Positions 29,255 to 56,401 of a stretch of DNA of 64,000 nucleotides are shown here, piece after piece (position 1 is the stretch's first letter; every line of letters begins with the position of its first letter). The position numbers were made by a program, and so were the translations under genes. The notes under the pieces are model-generated. The model did no database searches, was not told the DNA's origin, and saw only the letters and a program-made list of their open reading frames with translations. Source of the stretch: a virus; the IMG/VR virus record IMGVR_UViG_3300026557_000003, positions 2,527 through 66,526 of that record; one strand, given 5' to 3'.

Positions 29255-29332
29255 ATTCTGAATCACCTTTCAGTTTGTTGGTTAGAGCCGCTGCGGACAT
29301 TTAGCGTGTCCGCGCGGCTTGCTGTATTTTAA
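28556..29332 (+). CDS. Antisense bridging ORF spanning the HNH-4 cassette (candidate)
   Basis: ATG 6 nt after the upstream stop; TAA 15 nt before the next start; weak RBS. Confidence 0.4.
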   Translation: MLPRFTSNNISDGGGAYTVSLPLCVKRAYRCVLAYLSNILFSQTRKAMQFAPRWPLLACCIGGVFDMFPGLTFNDPLCSTGCNAEPTTYFFVTQSRKKRTKFCYFDLCKCCVVIIFSPYPAALRCHISTILSVRALEKVCGINAGTVIAVMANEQFWPFVKMNHKGESVGSYYSPWNASLYDRQTSVSLIANSASPRPAISVRTKTRRFVNSFPEHFKMLVGKHRWVYISRSHILNHLSVCWLEPLRTFSVSARLAVF

Positions 29333-50809: not shown

Positions 50810-51217
50810 GTGGGCTGGACCGATCAGGAATTCGAAGATTTCCGCGCGAAGTCGAAATTGTTTGCCAGCGCCAAGCCCCCAAAGCGCGGCCATAGATCGA
50901 AGGAAAAGGAAACCCTCGGGCGATACCTAATGACCCATGGAACGACCTGGGCGCTCGAACATCGATTTCACCCCGTCCGGCTGTGGCGATTTGACTGGGC
51001 GATTACTTCGTTGAAGATCGCTGTTGAGTTTGAGGGTGGTGTATTCATTCCCAAGGGTGGCGGCCATACAAAAGGAATGGATTACTCGAAAGATTGTGAG
51101 AAATACTCAGAAGCAGCAATTCTCGGCTGGCTGGTCGTTAGATGTACAGCGCCGATGATTCGAAGCGGGCTGGCGTTTGACTTGATCGAGCGGGCTATTA
51201 AGGCCAGACAGAAGTAA
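50810..51217 (+). CDS. DUF559/Vsr-like endonuclease
   Basis: HRFHPVRLWRFDWA...IAVEFEGG...KDCEKYSEAAILGWLVVR. Confidence 0.8.
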   Translation: MGWTDQEFEDFRAKSKLFASAKPPKRGHRSKEKETLGRYLMTHGTTWALEHRFHPVRLWRFDWAITSLKIAVEFEGGVFIPKGGGHTKGMDYSKDCEKYSEAAILGWLVVRCTAPMIRSGLAFDLIERAIKARQK

Positions 51218-51307
51218 TCCCGCGTGTAGATCAACTGAGCACGGCAACCCCGCGCGGGCCGCGATCTGCTTCTGAGGGAGATAACTAATTGATTTTATGG
51301 ACATTTA

Positions 51308-51393
51308 TGTTAACATGGATGCGAATCAGGGAGATGTTTTGAGCGTCTCCCTGGCTCTAATCAAATCGACGAACCTGTAAGGAGATTCGCATC
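51308..51393 (+). promoter_or_regulatory. HNH-6 promoter and leader
   Basis: TGtTAACAT; CAGGGAGA/TCTCCCTG stem with TGTTTTGAGCG loop; CTCTAATCA; GATGCGAATC/GATTCGCATC pairing over the RBS region. Confidence 0.7.
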
Positions 51394-51394
51394 A

Positions 51395-52036
51395 ATGACT
51401 GAGAACAAATCTAACATAATTCCTGAGGAACAAGAAGAGTGGCGATGGGTCAAGGGTTTTGAAGGTAGATATGAAGTTTCGAATATGGGGCACGTCAGAT
51501 CATACGTGAAACATGGATACGGGATTGATCTTTCTCCTGTGCCGATGCGTATTCTTTGTGGTGGCCTCACTAGTGGGTATATTCAGGTTGATTTGTCAAA
51601 GGGTGATCGAGTACGTCACCCTTTTCGCATACATGTTCTAGTTGCTGCTGCTTTTCTAGGGGATTGTCCCGATAGGCATCAGGTCAATCATAAAAATTGG
51701 AATAAGACGGACAATCGCCTCGATAATCTTGAGTATCTTACATCCCAGGGCAACACCTTGCATAGTAGGCCGCGAAGAAGAGGCCAGTGTGGAACACGGA
51801 TCGGAAGCGCAAAACTAAAAGAGAGCGATATTCCGGTCATTAAGTCGCTACGTGCTCAAGGTTTTACGTATAAAATGATCGGTGATCGGTTCTTGGTATC
51901 AGAATCAGCAATTGGCCATATTGTTTTAGGCCGCCACTGGAAGCACGTACGAGAAGATGGCAAAATAGTTCTTCCCACTGGGCGTACCGTCCGGGGAGAA
52001 AGTCGCGCGAAGAAACCGGAAGCGAGGGTAGCTTGA
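51395..52036 (+). CDS. NUMOD4-HNH homing endonuclease (HNH-6)
   Basis: EEWRWVKGFEGRYEVSNMGHVRS (NUMOD4); HVLVAAAF...VNHKNWNKTDNRLDNLEY. Confidence 0.92.
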   Translation: MTENKSNIIPEEQEEWRWVKGFEGRYEVSNMGHVRSYVKHGYGIDLSPVPMRILCGGLTSGYIQVDLSKGDRVRHPFRIHVLVAAAFLGDCPDRHQVNHKNWNKTDNRLDNLEYLTSQGNTLHSRPRRRGQCGTRIGSAKLKESDIPVIKSLRAQGFTYKMIGDRFLVSESAIGHIVLGRHWKHVREDGKIVLPTGRTVRGESRAKKPEARVA

Positions 52037-52221
52037 TGGCTAATAAAAAGGTCGCGGCATCTGAAGGCGTCCAGCCTGGCCAGCGATGGAATTATAAGCA
52101 CGGTGTAATCAGAATTATGGCCGTCAGTGGTAGCTACGCAATGGTTCGTCGTCCGCGGGGAGTGCCGTTCGTGGTATTGAAAAAGGACCTTCAATCGGAG
52201 TGGTCAGTCTACGAGAGTTGA
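52033..52221 (+). CDS. Small SH3-like hypothetical protein
   Basis: VQPGQRW...IRIMAV; overlap with HNH-6. Confidence 0.5.
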   Translation: MMANKKVAASEGVQPGQRWNYKHGVIRIMAVSGSYAMVRRPRGVPFVVLKKDLQSEWSVYES

Positions 52222-52261
52222 ATAAATCGCGTAGAAATCTTCCAACGGCACAAGTTTTGAC

Positions 52262-52445
52262 TTGTAATGAATCGTTGTTTTATGCATAATCGGGGCGTCC
52301 TGAAAAGGATGCTGGTTTAGCGGCCGGCTCGGTAGAAAGAAGAAAGCAATTTAACTTCAGCGAAGCCTTATCGGGTTTGTCGTTGCCAGTGTCTTTTCTT
52401 CTTTCGGGACACCGCTAAACGGCACGACCAATCCGATAAGGCTTT
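52262..52445 (+). ncRNA. c4/CI-like antisense RNA locus with upstream target
   Basis: Promoter TTGTAA-17-CATAAT; GAAA hairpin; GTTTAGCGG (52315-23) complementary to CCGCTAAAC (52412-20); purine tract 52335-46 complementary to 52394-405; 82-nt hairpin 52363-52444. Confidence 0.6.
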
Positions 52446-52464
52446 CTTGTTTTTGGAGGTAAAG

Positions 52465-52722
52465 ATGCACAACTACAATCACAACATTTGCGGAAAGTGC
52501 GGGCACCGATATGCAGATCACGCGCCAGTTTTCCTGAATCATACCGATGTTTGTAAGTATCAAAGCTGCGGTTGCCAATCCTTTCAAGAAACCGCTGTGG
52601 TTCGAACGCTGTCACCGTTAAACCAGACCCGCCAACAGAATCGATTTTCAATTAGCAGGCAATTCTATGTCAACAAAACCTGCATTTATCACGAAGCGGA
52701 TGTTTGTTATGCCGCTGTCTGA
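52465..52722 (+). CDS. Small Cys/His zinc-binding protein
   Basis: CGKCGH...H...CKYQSCGCQSF; GGAGG RBS. Confidence 0.55.
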   Translation: MHNYNHNICGKCGHRYADHAPVFLNHTDVCKYQSCGCQSFQETAVVRTLSPLNQTRQQNRFSISRQFYVNKTCIYHEADVCYAAV

Positions 52723-53176
52723 TCACGTCGATTCCCTCTACGAACAGATCGTCCGGGGCAATGCGTGGGATCCGGCCAACGAAAAGACCGCCGAATTCCG
52801 CGACTTCCTTTACGACGAAATCAAGTCGATTGCCTGGCATCTTCAACGCGATTTAGTCAAAGGCGCCGAACGCGGGATGGAAGAGGTTTTAGGCACTATC
52901 TGTGATCCTGACTACGAAAAACTTAAACGCCAGCAACGGCGCGATGACCGCGAAAAACAGAAGCAAAAGTTTGAGCTGGAACGACTCGAACGCGAGCGGA
53001 AAGATCTGGAAGGTCCGACCGCAGAGGAAAAGCTGCAACAGGTCAAGGCCCTCAAGTCCAGTCTTGAATATCACAGGCAAAAGTTTTACGACACAAAGGC
53101 GGCAATCGAACGCCTTGAGACTGAAGGCTTGCCGGGGTTGAAACTCGTCAAACCAGCAGACGATACGATTATGTAG
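52667..53176 (+). CDS. Hypothetical coiled-coil protein
   Basis: Charged helical ORF; exact start uncertain. Confidence 0.6.
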   Translation: MSTKPAFITKRMFVMPLSDHVDSLYEQIVRGNAWDPANEKTAEFRDFLYDEIKSIAWHLQRDLVKGAERGMEEVLGTICDPDYEKLKRQQRRDDREKQKQKFELERLERERKDLEGPTAEEKLQQVKALKSSLEYHRQKFYDTKAAIERLETEGLPGLKLVKPADDTIM

Positions 53177-53257
53177 CAGGCAATTTCATTGCGCGGCTGC
53201 AAAGCGCCTTCTTTTGAAGACGGCTCAGGCGGGCAGAGAATGTGAGGAATCTCCGGT

Positions 53258-54040
53258 TTGTCACACAAGCTCAGTTCTGCCCTATGGGACTTGGATATAG
53301 ACGGGCCAGAGCGCGAAGTTCTATCAGTTCTCTGTTACTACGCTGACGACGACGGGACGAATTGTTATCCTGGAATGGTGCTTCTTATCTGGAAACTGGG
53401 TAAATCAGAAAGTCAAACACAACGGATTTTGAAGCGTCTTGAGGGTCGCGGAATCGTCACAATAGTTCAACGTGGATTAGGTCGGGGCAACGGAAGCGAG
53501 TACACTTTGGACCTATCAAAAATAAATCCCAAAGAAAATTGTCCAATAAAAAAACCCCGCATTCAGGCCATAAAACCTACTATTCAGGAAATAAAACCTA
53601 GCATCGGGGAAATAAAACCCCCTATCCAGGATACGGAAAAGGTAGCATCCAGCACTGGCACGAAAGTTGCGGATTCTAAGGAATTCTTATTACCCAAGGG
53701 AATAGACCGTAAAGAACTACCACAGGAAGAGCCTGACGCAGCGAGCACCGAAGATCTGATTTGGATTTTCCGAGACGAATTCCAGCGGCTTAAAAAACTA
53801 CCCTACCGCAATAGCGTCAACGATCAGGTTGCGATTGTCACGATGCAGCGGTTTTACAATCCCTCGATTGACGACTGGAGAAAAACCCTTAAAAACTATT
53901 TTGCCACGCCAAACGACCGGCACTGGATTGGCGATCTTTGCGACCATTACGACACGTATTTTGTCAATGCCTTGGATAAGTATCGAAAGCCTGTAGAAGC
54001 TAAAAATGCTCCTGGAAAGCCGAAGAGGGCGGCGGTATGA
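53258..54040 (+). CDS. Replication initiator (lambda O-like, N-terminal HTH)
   Basis: REVLSVLCYYADDDGTNCYPG...RILKRLEGRGIV; internal iterons; directly upstream of primase-helicase. Confidence 0.8.
   Translation: MSHKLSSALWDLDIDGPEREVLSVLCYYADDDGTNCYPGMVLLIWKLGKSESQTQRILKRLEGRGIVTIVQRGLGRGNGSEYTLDLSKINPKENCPIKKPRIQAIKPTIQEIKPSIGEIKPPIQDTEKVASSTGTKVADSKEFLLPKGIDRKELPQEEPDAASTEDLIWIFRDEFQRLKKLPYRNSVNDQVAIVTMQRFYNPSIDDWRKTLKNYFATPNDRHWIGDLCDHYDTYFVNALDKYRKPVEAKNAPGKPKRAAV
53549..53630 (+). repeat. Four 21-bp-period iterons inside the initiator gene (putative ori)
   Basis: A(T/A)AAAACC at 53549, 53570, 53591, 53612; translated as IKPTIQE/IKPSIGE/IKPPIQ. Confidence 0.75.
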
Positions 54041-55815
54041 AACTCTACGAAATCGTTAGAATCTTCGATGCTAAAAAGGCTGGCAAAGAATTTAAGGCCA
54101 AATGCCCGGCCCACAACGACAGCACGCCTTCACTGTCGATAACTCAGGGTAACGATGGTGTAGTTATGATCTGCCATGCTGGATGCGATACTGATTCCGT
54201 ACTGGCGAGCAAGGGGCTGAACGCGTCCGATCTTTTTGAATCAAACTCCACTGTTGCGATTTCCGATCATCAGCGGGCGGTGAAAAAGAAATTCAAGATG
54301 CCGGAATATAAACCTGTCGAGCTCGCACTTGACGAAAAAGTAATCGCCTGGTTTGAGACGCGCGGGATTACTGACGAGGTTTTACTGGCAAACAAGATCG
54401 AATACCGCAAAGTCTGGATGCCGCAAGTTGAGGGCGAAGTAGGCGCGATCTGTTTTCCGTACTTCCGGGACGGCGAAGTCGTGAATGTTAAATACCGCGC
54501 TCGTGGCAAACATTTCAAAATGGAAAAGGGCGCGGAACTGGTTCTCTACGGACTGGACCGGATCCAAGCGGGCGAACCGCTTTATTGGGTCGAAGGCGAA
54601 GTTGACGCGCTCTCTTTGGATGTCGCCGAATATACGAACAGGGTGTCCGTTCCAAACGGTGCTGGCGGTGGCGCATCGAAGGATTACGAACGGGGGTTGT
54701 CCTATCTTGCCAGTTCACAGGTTCAGCTTGAATCGATTGACCGTCACATAATCGCGGTCGATAACGATATTGCCGGACGTGGCCTGCAGAACGAATTGAT
54801 CAGGCGATTAGGTCCAGAAAAGTGCTTTACCGTTGCGTGGCCGAAAGACTGCAAAGACGCAAACGATGTGCTGATGACCTATGGCGTCGATATTTTGAAA
54901 GAATGCTTGGCCGACGTTCAACCAGTTCCAGTTGCTGGAATCTACAGCATTAAGGACATTGAAGACGATATTGTCGGCCTGTACTACAAACCATTGCCGG
55001 GCGGCGAGTATCCCGGAACGGACAATCTGGCGAAGTTCTACCGACCGCGTGCGGGTGAATGGACTCTCGTTACGGGAATACCATCGTCGGGCAAATCGCG
55101 CTGGGTAGGCTGGCACGTCGTCCAATTAGCAAAGAGCCTGGGTTGGCAATTCGCGATTTGCTCACCGGAGCATCAGCCACTTCAGCGACACGCAGCGGAA
55201 TTGATTTCGTGCTTTAACGGAATGCCTTTTCGTGAAGGCCCGAACGAGCGAATGTCCGCCGAGCAGCTAAACCAGGGTATCGATTGGCTCGATAAACACT
55301 TTTCTTTTTTGCTGCCAGACGACGAAATGACAATCGAAAGAATATTAGAACTTTCGCGAGTTGAGGTTTTCAGGCGTGGAATCAAGGGACTTGTGGTCGA
55401 TCCCTGGAACGAATTCGACCATACCAGACCAAAGGGAATGAGCCTGACCGAATACGTGGGAAAGACTCTAATTAAAATCCGACAGTTTGCGCGGCGTCAT
55501 CAAGTCCATGTCTGGGTCGTGGCGCATCCCCAGAAGCTACAGAAAGACAAAGACGGCGAATACCCAGTACCGACGCCATACGACGTGTCTGATAGCGCCC
55601 ACTGGTACAACAAACCAGATATGGCGCTGACGGTCCACCGGGATAAGCTGGACGATTCCAAAGCCGTCGATATTCACATTCAGAAAGTTCGCTTTGAAGA
55701 AAACGGGCACATCGGTGTTGCGGAAATGTTCTTCAACAAACTCAACGGTCAGTATTCAGACGAAGCCCCAGGGCAGAGGTTTTTACAATATGGTAGAGAC
55801 GATGAAAGCAATTGA
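54037..55815 (+). CDS. Primase-helicase (zinc finger, TOPRIM, SF4 helicase; T7 gp4/Twinkle-like)
   Basis: CPAHND...CHAGC; WVEGEVDALS; AVDND; KDAND; TGIPSSGKS; VVDPWN. Confidence 0.92.
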   Translation: MKLYEIVRIFDAKKAGKEFKAKCPAHNDSTPSLSITQGNDGVVMICHAGCDTDSVLASKGLNASDLFESNSTVAISDHQRAVKKKFKMPEYKPVELALDEKVIAWFETRGITDEVLLANKIEYRKVWMPQVEGEVGAICFPYFRDGEVVNVKYRARGKHFKMEKGAELVLYGLDRIQAGEPLYWVEGEVDALSLDVAEYTNRVSVPNGAGGGASKDYERGLSYLASSQVQLESIDRHIIAVDNDIAGRGLQNELIRRLGPEKCFTVAWPKDCKDANDVLMTYGVDILKECLADVQPVPVAGIYSIKDIEDDIVGLYYKPLPGGEYPGTDNLAKFYRPRAGEWTLVTGIPSSGKSRWVGWHVVQLAKSLGWQFAICSPEHQPLQRHAAELISCFNGMPFREGPNERMSAEQLNQGIDWLDKHFSFLLPDDEMTIERILELSRVEVFRRGIKGLVVDPWNEFDHTRPKGMSLTEYVGKTLIKIRQFARRHQVHVWVVAHPQKLQKDKDGEYPVPTPYDVSDSAHWYNKPDMALTVHRDKLDDSKAVDIHIQKVRFEENGHIGVAEMFFNKLNGQYSDEAPGQRFLQYGRDDESN

Positions 55816-56401
55816 AACCGTATACCGTGGAATCAATTTTCGGTCGCGCAACGAAGCTCGGTGGGCGGTCTTTATGGATCAACTCGGAATTCCGTTTGAA
55901 TATGAACCTGAGGGTTTTGAGTTGAACGGTTTGCGTTATCTTCCCGATTTCTATCTAACCGATCAGAAGATTTGGGCCGAAGTGAAATCCCAGTTACCGA
56001 ATGAAACCGAGAAAGAGAAAGCTGTTCGTTTGGTCAACGAAAGTGGGCTGGCGCTGGTTTTCCTGATATTCTCGCACGGCCGCGCCGAATCAATTGAACA
56101 TTCCGGCGGCCCGTTCTATCCACCAAGCTCGAAAGATCGTCACCCGCAACTGGCGGTTTGGCAAAACTGCATTGGCTGTAAAGCGTTCTCGGTCGGCCCA
56201 TATGCACCGGCAGCTGGATTTGAATGCTGGAATTGTGGACTCAAACTGACGAGCGAACAGGTTTTAGAATTGGCCGATAAGGGGCAAGAGGTTTTCGACG
56301 AGACGATCCTGGCTGACGCGTTCACAGTTGCAAGACAGGCGCGTTTTGAATTCGGGGAAACCCCACACGGATTACCGCCTGTGGATCGAGAAGGCGTTTG
56401 A
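55802..56401 (+). CDS. PD-(D/E)XK-like phage nuclease
   Basis: IETVYRGINFRSRNEARWA...YEPEG...YLPDFYL...WAEVK. Confidence 0.75.
   Translation: MKAIETVYRGINFRSRNEARWAVFMDQLGIPFEYEPEGFELNGLRYLPDFYLTDQKIWAEVKSQLPNETEKEKAVRLVNESGLALVFLIFSHGRAESIEHSGGPFYPPSSKDRHPQLAVWQNCIGCKAFSVGPYAPAAGFECWNCGLKLTSEQVLELADKGQEVFDETILADAFTVARQARFEFGETPHGLPPVDREGV

What the first reader, a model, noticed from the sequence alone, without database searches (positions are those of the whole stretch)
52262..52465. c4/CI-like antisense RNA switch upstream of the replication operon
The layout is promoter, GAAA hairpin, small hairpin presenting TTTAGCGG, purine tract, then an 82-nt hairpin. That hairpin's bulge (CCGCTAAAC) and loop (TTTTCTTCTTTC) are complementary, in antiparallel order, to those two upstream elements. 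A U-rich run follows before the next RBS. This parallels P1 c4 and P4 CI immunity, where a processed RNA pairs with leader sites to stop downstream expression; in P4 that includes the primase-helicase operon. I found no clear second downstream target, so it may be a simplified variant. The same TTTAGCG heptamer is the plus-strand loop of the HNH-4 leader hairpin (29300-29306).
Basis: partly seen in the sequence, partly recalled or inferred. Interest (0 to 1): 0.7.

Follow-up and report, generated by a model that had tools for sequence, protein, structure and literature searches.

The report
Covarying terminator leader RNA before replication genes
Just upstream of this soil phage's DNA-replication genes lies a promoter followed by a folded ~160-base leader RNA whose transcription-stop hairpin pairs, through its tip and a side bulge, with two upstream boxes; four related phages keep both pairings with different letters, so it is a real, uncatalogued RNA control element, though how it works is still inferred.

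Summary
At 52257-52464 there is a sigma-70-like promoter, a GAAA hairpin, a small hairpin carrying box A, a purine box B, and an 82-84-nt hairpin (T) with a U-run, an SD and an ATG.

- **Pairing.** The T loop (B') and 3' bulge (A') complement B (11 Watson-Crick pairs plus one G-U) and A (9 pairs), in nested order. No shuffle out of 1000 matched this.
- **Homologues.** I found homologous leaders in three other uncultured phages (L084, L091, L092), all upstream of the same initiator family. A:A' and B:B' persist in all of them. B/B' have four unrelated sequences, and four of the nine A:A' pairs show double compensatory changes. T and the small hairpin also covary.
- **Alternative folds.** Box A belongs to two mutually exclusive conserved helices. 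The nascent RNA is predicted to fold first into the box-paired form, while T is the stable end state.
- **Reading.** It is most likely a two-state attenuator that gates transcription into the replication genes.
- **c4/CI idea.** This is only partly supported. The layout and logic are similar, but there is no Rfam C4 or isrK match, no second downstream target, no sign of processing and no lysogeny genes. Action in trans remains possible.

Earlier AI notes from this scan describe similar "kissing-loop terminator leaders" on unrelated phage DNA.

The parts
52253..52312 (+). Block identical to the L084 relative: -35 (TTGACT 52257-62 / TTGTAA 52262-67), -10 (CATAAT 52285-90), the probable start near 52295-52297, and hairpin 1
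   Evidence: Promoter scan. The 60-nt identity with L084 begins 4 nt before the -35, and the DNA upstream of it is unrelated. L092 has TTGACT-16-GATAAT at the equivalent place.
52295..52312 (+). Hairpin 1: 7-bp stem with a GAAA tetraloop, at or near the 5' end of the RNA
   Evidence: Folds. Identical in L084, similar in L092 (GUCCU-GAAA-GGGAU) and absent in L091.
52313..52326 (+). Hairpin 2, loop UAGC. It holds box A in its stem and loop, so it excludes A:A'
   Evidence: MFE fold. This is helix 1 of the family alignment: 8 pairs, 4 with changes on both sides, 90.6% of cells paired.
52315..52323 (+). Box A (GTTTAGCGG), complementary to A'
   Evidence: Exact 9-nt inverted repeat. For A:A' across four lineages, 91.4% of cells are paired and 4 of 9 pairs carry double changes, against 26-51% in the slid controls.
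52335..52346 (+). Box B (GAAAGAAGAAAG), complementary to the T loop B'
   Evidence: 11 Watson-Crick pairs plus one G-U. B/B' has four unrelated sequences in four lineages, always complementary.
52362..52445 (+). Long hairpin T: stalk, top stem 52389-95/52406-12, loop and 3' bulge. It has intrinsic-terminator form
   Evidence: -40.6 kcal/mol on its own. It is the strongest hairpin plus U-run on the + strand of the genome. Across the family model, 13 of 38 pairs carry double changes, with 0 of 500 shuffles as high.
52394..52405 (+). B' (TTTTCTTCTTTC), the apical loop of T
52412..52420 (+). A' (CCGCTAAAC), the 3' bulge of T directly after the top stem
52443..52454 (+). U-rich tract (TTTCTTGTTTTT) directly after T
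   Evidence: A U-run follows T in all four lineages.
52455..52722 (+). GGAGG, then ATG 52465 of an 85-aa Cys-rich ORF, the first gene after the leader
   Evidence: No Pfam or PHROG match. L091 and L092 have an 88-89-aa Cys-rich ORF starting right after the U-run.
53258..55815 (+). Genes presumably controlled: the HTH_36 / O-like replication initiator (53258-54040) and the primase-helicase (54037-55815)
   Evidence: Pfam and PHROGs. In L084 the leader lies directly before the initiator.

Best explanation
This is a promoter-proximal, two-state leader RNA (an attenuator) that gates host-RNA-polymerase transcription into the phage replication module.

The proposed sequence of events is as follows.
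1. Transcription starts about 7 nt after CATAAT.
2. The RNA first forms hairpin 1 and hairpin 2.
3. When the tip of the future terminator emerges, box B pairs with B' and box A leaves hairpin 2 to pair with A'. This is the 'box-paired' fold, which ties up the head of the terminator and much of its 5' arm.
4. Once the 3' arm is made, the long hairpin T plus U-run is 9-16 kcal/mol more stable and would stop transcription.
5. The share of polymerases that read on into the 85-aa ORF, initiator and primase-helicase genes therefore depends on whether A and B are free to pair during the short time before T can form.

Shown: the elements, both long-range pairings and their covariation, the covarying terminator-like hairpin with a conserved U-run, the mutually exclusive use of box A, and the position before the initiator.

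Inferred: that T terminates, that the box-paired fold delays it, and what (if anything) sets the balance. Because A and especially B have no conserved sequence, an RNA partner is a more likely effector than a sequence-specific protein or ligand.
For: - Both complementarities are present and non-random in the window (0 of 1000 shuffles).
- Three further lineages were found through the initiator and through the covariance model (L092, E = 4.7e-9). They keep A:A' and B:B' at the same relative positions: A to B 8-14 nt, B' to A' 4-6 nt.
- Shuffles reached the observed runs 0/1000, 0/1000, 0/1000 and 1/1000 times.
- On an alignment that was not fitted to A:A', 91.4% of cells pair and 4 of 9 pairs carry double changes.
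- T and hairpin 2 covary.
- G-U pairs, and a 151- versus 24-bit score difference between strands, point to the + strand RNA.
- In all four lineages the fold of the nascent prefix contains B:B'. A:A' also appears for the window and, in a shifted register, for L084. The full-length fold is T in every case.
- Direct-path refolding barriers are 17-37 kcal/mol. These are pseudoknot-free upper bounds.
- Homology with L084 starts exactly at the -35, so the promoter and leader form one unit.
- The element is single-copy, and T is the strongest terminator-like hairpin in the genome.
Against: - A' and B' lie in the loop and bulge of T, not in its stalk. The 13-bp base of T next to the U-run could therefore still form as a pseudoknot alongside A:A' and B:B', in which case the boxes would not prevent termination.
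- T is always the more stable fold.
- No effector has been identified.
- There are only four independent lineages plus one marginal one, L109 (E = 0.2-0.7).
- There are no expression data.
- The promoter-like site in L091 fails the consensus scan.
Confidence: 0.5

Rival explanations
1. Self-antisense feedback of the P4 CI / P1 c4 / IsrK kind. The T hairpin, released by termination or cut out of read-through transcripts, exposes B' and A'. It binds boxes B and A of newly made leaders in trans. This stops the box-paired fold from forming in cis, so T forms and transcription stops. The result would be negative feedback on replication genes, with lineage-specific (orthogonal) recognition.
For: - The complementary segments are exactly the unpaired parts of T. 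The centre of box A is presented in the hairpin 2 loop. This is the usual design of antisense recognition.
- B/B' are completely different in each lineage although their flanks are 77-100% conserved.
- Cognate duplexes are -9.9 to -17 kcal/mol, against -0.7 to -7.3 kcal/mol for non-cognate B pairs. This is what selection against cross-talk would produce.
- The lack of any conserved sequence in B argues for an RNA effector.
- P4 CI, made from the leader of the operon it controls, blocks replication genes by premature termination. IsrK is a terminated leader RNA that acts on its own read-through isoform (both described in PMC4825925).
Against: - There is no match to Rfam C4 or isrK.
- No second downstream target was found in any lineage.
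- No tRNA-like or CCA feature for RNase P is visible after the stem.
- No integrase or other lysogeny genes were found.
- In a terminated full-length leader, the molecule's own A and B would compete with any trans partner.
- Cis pairing alone explains the covariation.
Confidence: 0.25
2. A static pseudoknotted fold. The T stalk, A:A' and B:B' coexist as a three-helix structure. Its role would be RNA stability, an RNase III or other processing site, or control of ribosome access, rather than switching termination.
For: - The boxes pair with the loop and bulge, leaving the stalk intact.
- B' to A' spacing (4-6 nt) and A to B spacing (8-14 nt) are conserved, as expected for a fixed geometry.
- In L091 and L092 an SD-like GGGG lies in the 3' base of T, 7-10 nt before the ATG.
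- The roughly 30-bp stalk is much longer than termination needs.
Against: - Box A is also part of the conserved, covarying hairpin 2. The top stem that closes the B' loop covaries as well. Mutually exclusive helices are therefore both under selection, which points to a switch.
- A 10-12-nt loop cannot be fully paired while its closing stem stands.
- The U-run is conserved in all four lineages.
Confidence: 0.13
3. A DNA-level feature. The inverted repeats would be paired binding sites for the initiator or a repressor, or an origin or single-strand initiation structure.
For: - The element always travels with the same initiator N-terminal domain.
- Repeated protein-binding sites would also change in concert.
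Against: - The helices contain many G-U pairs that would be A-C mismatches on the other strand.
- The reverse strand scores 24 bits against 151-166.
- The repeats fall exactly on the unpaired parts of an RNA hairpin and vary in length from 6 to 12 nt.
- A promoter precedes the element and a U-run follows it in each lineage, although L091's promoter-like site, read by eye as TTGAAA-17-TGTAAT, fails the consensus scan.
Confidence: 0.05
4. An ordinary terminator of the upstream HNH operon followed by nothing special, with the complementarities arising by chance.
For: Upstream genes are on the same strand, so T would also stop incoming transcripts.
Against: - Shuffle tests.
- Covariation in four lineages.
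- The conserved unit starts at its own promoter and has different upstream genes in each lineage.
Confidence: 0.02

Closest known systems
Satellite phage P4 immunity: CI RNA with seqA/seqC (as summarised in PMC4825925)
   Same: An untranslated leader lies between a promoter and the replication (primase-helicase) operon. A hairpin RNA made from that same leader carries a sequence complementary to a site upstream of it. The outcome is premature transcription termination before the replication genes.
   Different: There is no sequence or structure match to the Rfam C4 model. No downstream (seqC-like) site exists. Here there are two separate boxes. The hairpin is itself an intrinsic terminator. 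Processing, lysogeny and action in trans are not shown.
P1/P7 c4 antisense RNA with a1/b1 and a2/b2 sites (Rfam RF01695; the c4-a1b1 motif is listed in PMC2864571)
   Same: A hairpin carries two short boxes (a', b') that are complementary, in the same order logic, to two boxes upstream on the same transcript. The boxes differ between related phages (my recollection of P1/P7 heteroimmunity).
   Different: No covariance-model match. There is no a2/b2 site covering a downstream ribosome-binding site. The context is replication genes rather than the icd/ant antirepressor operon. The target phage has no visible lysogeny module.
IsrK of the Salmonella Gifsy-1 prophage (PMC4825925)
   Same: One promoter gives a short terminated RNA and a read-through mRNA. 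Alternative folds of the leader decide expression, and the short form can pair with the long form.
   Different: IsrK activates translation of a downstream ORF. There is no isrK Rfam match here, and the pairing here involves the terminator's own loop and bulge.
Antisense-driven attenuation in plasmid rep leaders (pT181 / pIP501 type), from my own knowledge of the field
   Same: A replication-initiator leader carries a terminator and a competing upstream pairing ('preemptor'). Control is based on RNA pairing.
   Different: Those systems use a countertranscript from the opposite strand, and the preemptor pairs with the terminator's 5' arm. Here no conserved antisense promoter was seen, and the boxes pair with the loop and bulge.
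IncI-alpha / IncB repZ/repA leader pseudoknot, from my own knowledge
   Same: The loop of a hairpin in a replication-initiator leader pairs with a distant complementary segment of the same RNA. That pairing decides initiator expression.
   Different: There the partner lies next to the rep ribosome-binding site and activates translation, and an antisense RNA blocks it. Here the partners are upstream, and the hairpin is terminator-like.

Membership tests
Rfam C4 antisense RNA clan (C4 RF01695, c4-like models, isrK) | Match to the family covariance model | tested here: not met
   There was no hit at gathering score in the 64-kb window. No C4 or isrK hit appeared at E <= 10 in 52100-52600, nor at E <= 5 in L084, L091 or L092.
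Rfam C4 antisense RNA clan (C4 RF01695, c4-like models, isrK) | Two boxes in the hairpin complementary to two boxes upstream on the same transcript (a1/b1-like) | tested here: met
   A:A' and B:B' are exact in the window and are kept in four lineages.
Rfam C4 antisense RNA clan (C4 RF01695, c4-like models, isrK) | A second, downstream target (a2/b2 or seqC) at or near a ribosome-binding site | tested here: not met
   No site with adjacent A-like and B-like boxes exists anywhere in the 69-kb genome or in the L084, L091 or L092 loci.
Rfam C4 antisense RNA clan (C4 RF01695, c4-like models, isrK) | Processing of the hairpin out of a precursor (RNase P), followed by action in trans | not testable with these tools
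   This needs northern blots, RNA-end mapping and trans-complementation assays.
Rfam C4 antisense RNA clan (C4 RF01695, c4-like models, isrK) | Part of the immunity system of a temperate element | tested here: inconclusive
   No integrase or clear repressor appeared among the ORFs tested. The only hint is a weak HTH_3 match at 920-1336 on the minus strand. Not every ORF was scanned.
Intrinsic-terminator attenuator (leader switch) | A promoter-proximal G+C-based hairpin directly followed by a U-run, conserved among relatives | tested here: met
Intrinsic-terminator attenuator (leader switch) | Conserved, mutually exclusive alternative pairing | tested here: met
   Box A is used by hairpin 2 and also by A:A'. 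The fold of the nascent prefix differs from the full-length fold in all four lineages.
Intrinsic-terminator attenuator (leader switch) | The alternative pairing sequesters part of the terminator stem, so that termination is prevented | tested here: inconclusive
   The boxes pair with the loop and bulge and would open the top stem, but the stalk next to the U-run is not directly sequestered. Nested-model barriers of 17-37 kcal/mol ignore pseudoknots.
Countertranscript (pT181-type) copy control | A conserved promoter on the opposite strand producing an antisense RNA to the leader | tested here: not met
   The only minus-strand promoter-like site is at 52673-52644, inside the 85-aa ORF, which L084 lacks. 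The L092 scan showed none.

The most novel reading that the evidence does not exclude
The element is an RNA-only, self-addressed replication brake. The terminator hairpin, once released, acts in trans on the boxes of nascent leaders of the same phage. Its fast-changing B box gives each lineage a private 'address'. The effect would be a plasmid-like incompatibility or heteroimmunity system for replication genes in phages that show no lysogeny module. It may belong to a much wider, unpublished class of kissing-loop terminator leaders that this scan has noted in unrelated phages.
Probability: 0.25. Interest if true: 0.8.

Novelty: new variant of a known kind. Interest (0 to 1): 0.62.

Why it matters
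If the reading holds, entry of transcription into a phage replication module is set by an RNA device whose only conserved 'recognition' is base pairing between a terminator's head and two upstream boxes. That would extend P4/P1-style RNA control of replication genes to unrelated soil phages.

It would also give a compact, naturally orthogonal set of RNA gates: four versions with non-cross-reacting B boxes. The mechanism can be tested directly with compensatory mutants. Finally, the element is missing from Rfam, so genome annotation currently overlooks it.

Tried and rejected
- **Rfam.** The whole window at gathering score, and the region at E <= 10, gave only noise. The best was PyrG_leader at 20.8 bits against a cut-off of 65. 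The three homologues gave nothing either.
- **Phage GenBank.** A blastn search of 51000-54000 found no match.
- **Primase-helicase relatives.** I collected those in IMG/VR and JGI metagenomes. At 40-63% identity none carries a homologous leader, by blastn/nhmmer or by the covariance models. The closest one, L007, lacks the upstream DNA.
- **Pattern scans.** Exact-pattern scans of IMG/VR for the B..B' pair, for hairpin 1 and for hairpin 1 plus the A' core gave only unrelated hits. The three hairpin-1 hits in GTDB genomes are chance.
- **Neighbouring genes.** The 169-aa gene's only relative sits in another context without the leader. The 85-aa ORF has no relative in the protein collection.
- **Other initiator relatives.** At 48-49% identity (L108, L110, L111) they have no leader. 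L109 is a marginal candidate with A:A' only.
- **L086/L085.** These have a different long hairpin at the same site. An 8-nt loop complementarity there is not significant on its own.
- **Second targets.** Searches in the genome and in the relatives found none. A first duplex scan timed out.
- **Heptamer link to the HNH-4 hairpin.** This is at chance frequency.
- **Lysogeny genes.** Nothing found.
- **L092 record.** The whole 83-kb record could not be searched because it is not held.

Full report
**Setting.** The window is 64 kb of a 69,197-bp IMG/VR virus record that is estimated 99% complete. Nearly all genes are on the + strand. The finding lies in the 243-nt gap between a 62-aa ORF, which follows an HNH endonuclease gene at 51395-52036, and an 85-aa Cys-rich ORF starting at 52465. 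Next come a 169-aa ORF, an HTH_36 / O-like replication initiator (53258-54040), a primase-helicase (54037-55815), a nuclease-like ORF (55694-56401; PHROG Holliday-junction resolvase/endonuclease matches) and a C5 methyltransferase.

Reading the sequence and folding it (-66.7 kcal/mol, z = -4.07) gives the following layout:
- a sigma-70-like promoter;
- a 7-bp GAAA hairpin, 52295-52312;
- a small hairpin, 52313-26, with loop UAGC;
- a purine tract, 52335-46;
- an 84-nt hairpin T, 52362-52445, followed by TTTCTTGTTTTT, GGAGG and ATG.

The repeat finder reports exact inverted repeats of 11 nt (B/B', with a 12th G-U pair) and 9 nt (A/A'). B' is the apical loop of T and A' is the bulge just 3' of its top stem. 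Both are unpaired in the T fold. In 1000 shuffles of the upstream segment, none reached the longest run or the sum of the two nested runs. T is the strongest hairpin plus U-run on the + strand of the whole genome, and the element is single-copy.

**Relatives.**
- Primase-helicase relatives at 40-63% identity carry no homologous leader.
- Searching with the initiator found closer relatives in Logan and ENA assemblies.
- L084 (initiator 87% identical over its N-terminal domain) has the leader directly before its initiator. Homology with the window begins 4 nt before the -35 and is 60/60 identical through hairpin 1, then diverges.
- L091 has it before an 89-aa Cys-rich ORF.
- A covariance model built from these three found a fourth type at E = 4.7e-9 in L092-L097, which are identical copies from six assemblies.
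- L109 is a marginal fifth, with E = 0.2-0.7 and A:A' only.
- No Rfam family matches any of them.

**Covariation.** In all four lineages the same two nested pairings exist at the same relative positions.

| Lineage | A : A' | B : B' |
|---|---|---|
| window | GTTTAGCGG : CCGCTAAAC | GAAAGAAGAAAG : TTTTCTTCTTTC |
| L084 | TTGGCGGT : ACCGCCAG | GAGACAGAAC : GTTCTGTCTC |
| L091 | GCTTTTAGCAG : CTGCTAAAAGC | CGATAGAG : TTCTATCG |
| L092 | TTGCAG : CTGCAA | AAACACGCA : TGCGTGTTT |

- Shuffle tests reached the observed runs 0, 0, 0 and 1 times in 1000.
- The model alignment was fitted to T and hairpin 2, not to A:A'. On it, A:A' has 91.4% of cells paired and 4 of 9 pairs with double changes, against 26-51% paired when the partner is slid by 1-3 columns.
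- T and hairpin 2 also covary: 13 of 38 pairs carry double changes, with 0 of 500 shuffles as high.
- Many pairs are G-U, and the reverse strand scores 24 bits against 151-166. The folded molecule is therefore the + strand RNA.
- A promoter-like site precedes the structure in the window and L084 (identical sequence) and in L092 (10/12 match). The L091 site fails the scan.
- A U-run follows T in all four lineages.

**Two states.** Box A's nucleotides belong both to the covarying hairpin 2 and to A:A', so two mutually exclusive helices are conserved. The covarying top stem of T closes a 6-20-nt loop holding B' (10 nt in the window), and B:B' would fill that loop. Folding growing transcripts shows that, up to the end of A', the most stable fold contains B:B'. 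For the window, and in a shifted register for L084, it also contains A:A'. A local hairpin in T's 5' arm forms as well. Once the 3' arm is present, T wins by 9-16 kcal/mol. Direct-path barriers between the two folds are 17-37 kcal/mol, but these are upper bounds because pseudoknots are ignored.

This fits a kinetic attenuator. The box-paired fold forms first and delays the terminator, while T is the end state.

The weak point is that the boxes bind T's loop and bulge rather than its stalk. The base of T could therefore still form as a pseudoknot. For this reason a static three-helix fold is kept as a rival.

**Cis or trans.** Cis pairing explains everything that was measured.
- The complementary segments are exactly the exposed parts of a long bulged hairpin.
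- The centre of A sits in a hairpin loop.
- B/B' are completely replaced in each lineage while the flanks stay conserved.
- Cognate B duplexes are -9.9 to -17 kcal/mol, against -0.7 to -7.3 kcal/mol for non-cognate pairs.
- P4 CI is made from the leader of the replication operon it shuts off by premature termination. IsrK is a terminated leader RNA that acts on its own read-through form (PMC4825925).

Against membership in that family: no covariance-model match, no downstream second target in any lineage, no visible processing signal and no lysogeny genes. I therefore rate 'works partly like CI/c4' as possible, at about 0.25, and 'is a C4-family RNA' as not supported.

**Other readings.**
- A DNA-level role (paired protein sites or an origin) is unlikely. 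The reasons are the G-U pairs, the strand asymmetry, the variable box lengths, and the placement of the boxes on the unpaired parts of an RNA hairpin.
- Chance is excluded.

**Relation to earlier notes of this scan.** Word searches show that other agents have reported 'kissing-loop terminator leader RNAs' before replication genes in unrelated phages and elements. In those, a promoter is followed by a 5' hairpin whose loop pairs with the tip of a terminator, with dozens of covarying versions. These are unchecked AI notes on other DNA, and a sequence look-up found no look-alike of the present leader. They suggest that this element is a larger, two-contact version of a recurring and unpublished design. 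I did not test that link.

**Verdict.** This is a real, conserved and uncatalogued structured leader RNA. It is most likely a two-state terminator gate for the replication module, and its mechanism is still inferred. It is a new variant of RNA-based control of replication genes rather than a member of the C4 family.

Noticed in passing
window 52654-52664 and 53175-53185; L084 ~2363; L091 ~484; L092 ~2974: AGCAGGCAATT occurs exactly twice in the window, flanking the 169-aa gene. It occurs once between the leader and the initiator in L084, and as variants after the small ORF in L091 and L092. It looks like a module junction. On that reading, the 169-aa gene (flanked by the two copies), and probably the 85-aa ORF as well, is an insert between leader and initiator.
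   Followed up: partly
window 52465-52722: The 85-aa ORF shares only an N-terminal NICxxC-type motif with the 88-89-aa small gene of L091 and L092. Its last ~45 nt match the end of that gene (..IFN, stop at 52653-55) in a different frame. The ORF therefore looks chimeric or frameshifted. It is absent from the protein collection.
   Followed up: partly
L092 3001-3513 (protein P0014): The first ~93 residues resemble the initiator N-terminus (49% identity), but the product continues into an HNH domain, and a 315-aa ORF follows. This is possibly an HNH insertion splitting the initiator gene.
   Followed up: no
window 52302-52307 vs 52392-52397; L084 and L092 T loops: The hairpin 1 loop GAAAAG is complementary to CTTTTC on the 5' side of the T loop. 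The two other lineages that have hairpin 1 carry an extra U-rich stretch 5' of B'. L091, which lacks hairpin 1, lacks that stretch. This could be a third, pseudoknotted contact. It is short and A/U-rich, so it may be chance.
   Followed up: no
L005 3042-3258; L086 848-958: More distant relatives have non-homologous structured leaders at the same place. L005 has a promoter (TTGACA-17-TACATT), a branched hairpin and a T-run before its initiator. L086 has a ~95-nt hairpin whose base is an A-like box (GATTTAGCCGG / CCGGCTAAATC) without a U-run.
   Followed up: partly
window 52441-52452 vs 52336-52347: The purine box B is also 92% complementary to the 3' shoulder of T plus the U-run, and B' and that stretch are direct repeats. 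This is not seen in the other lineages, so it is probably a by-product of the purine/pyrimidine composition.
   Followed up: partly
window 52673-52644 (minus strand): A promoter-like site, TTGACA-18-GAAAAT (10/12), points back towards the leader from inside the 85-aa ORF. It cannot be conserved in L084, which lacks that ORF.
   Followed up: no
genome 66939-66950 (outside the window, just past its end), minus strand: A run of about 12 G on the minus strand turned up in the complementarity scan.
   Followed up: no
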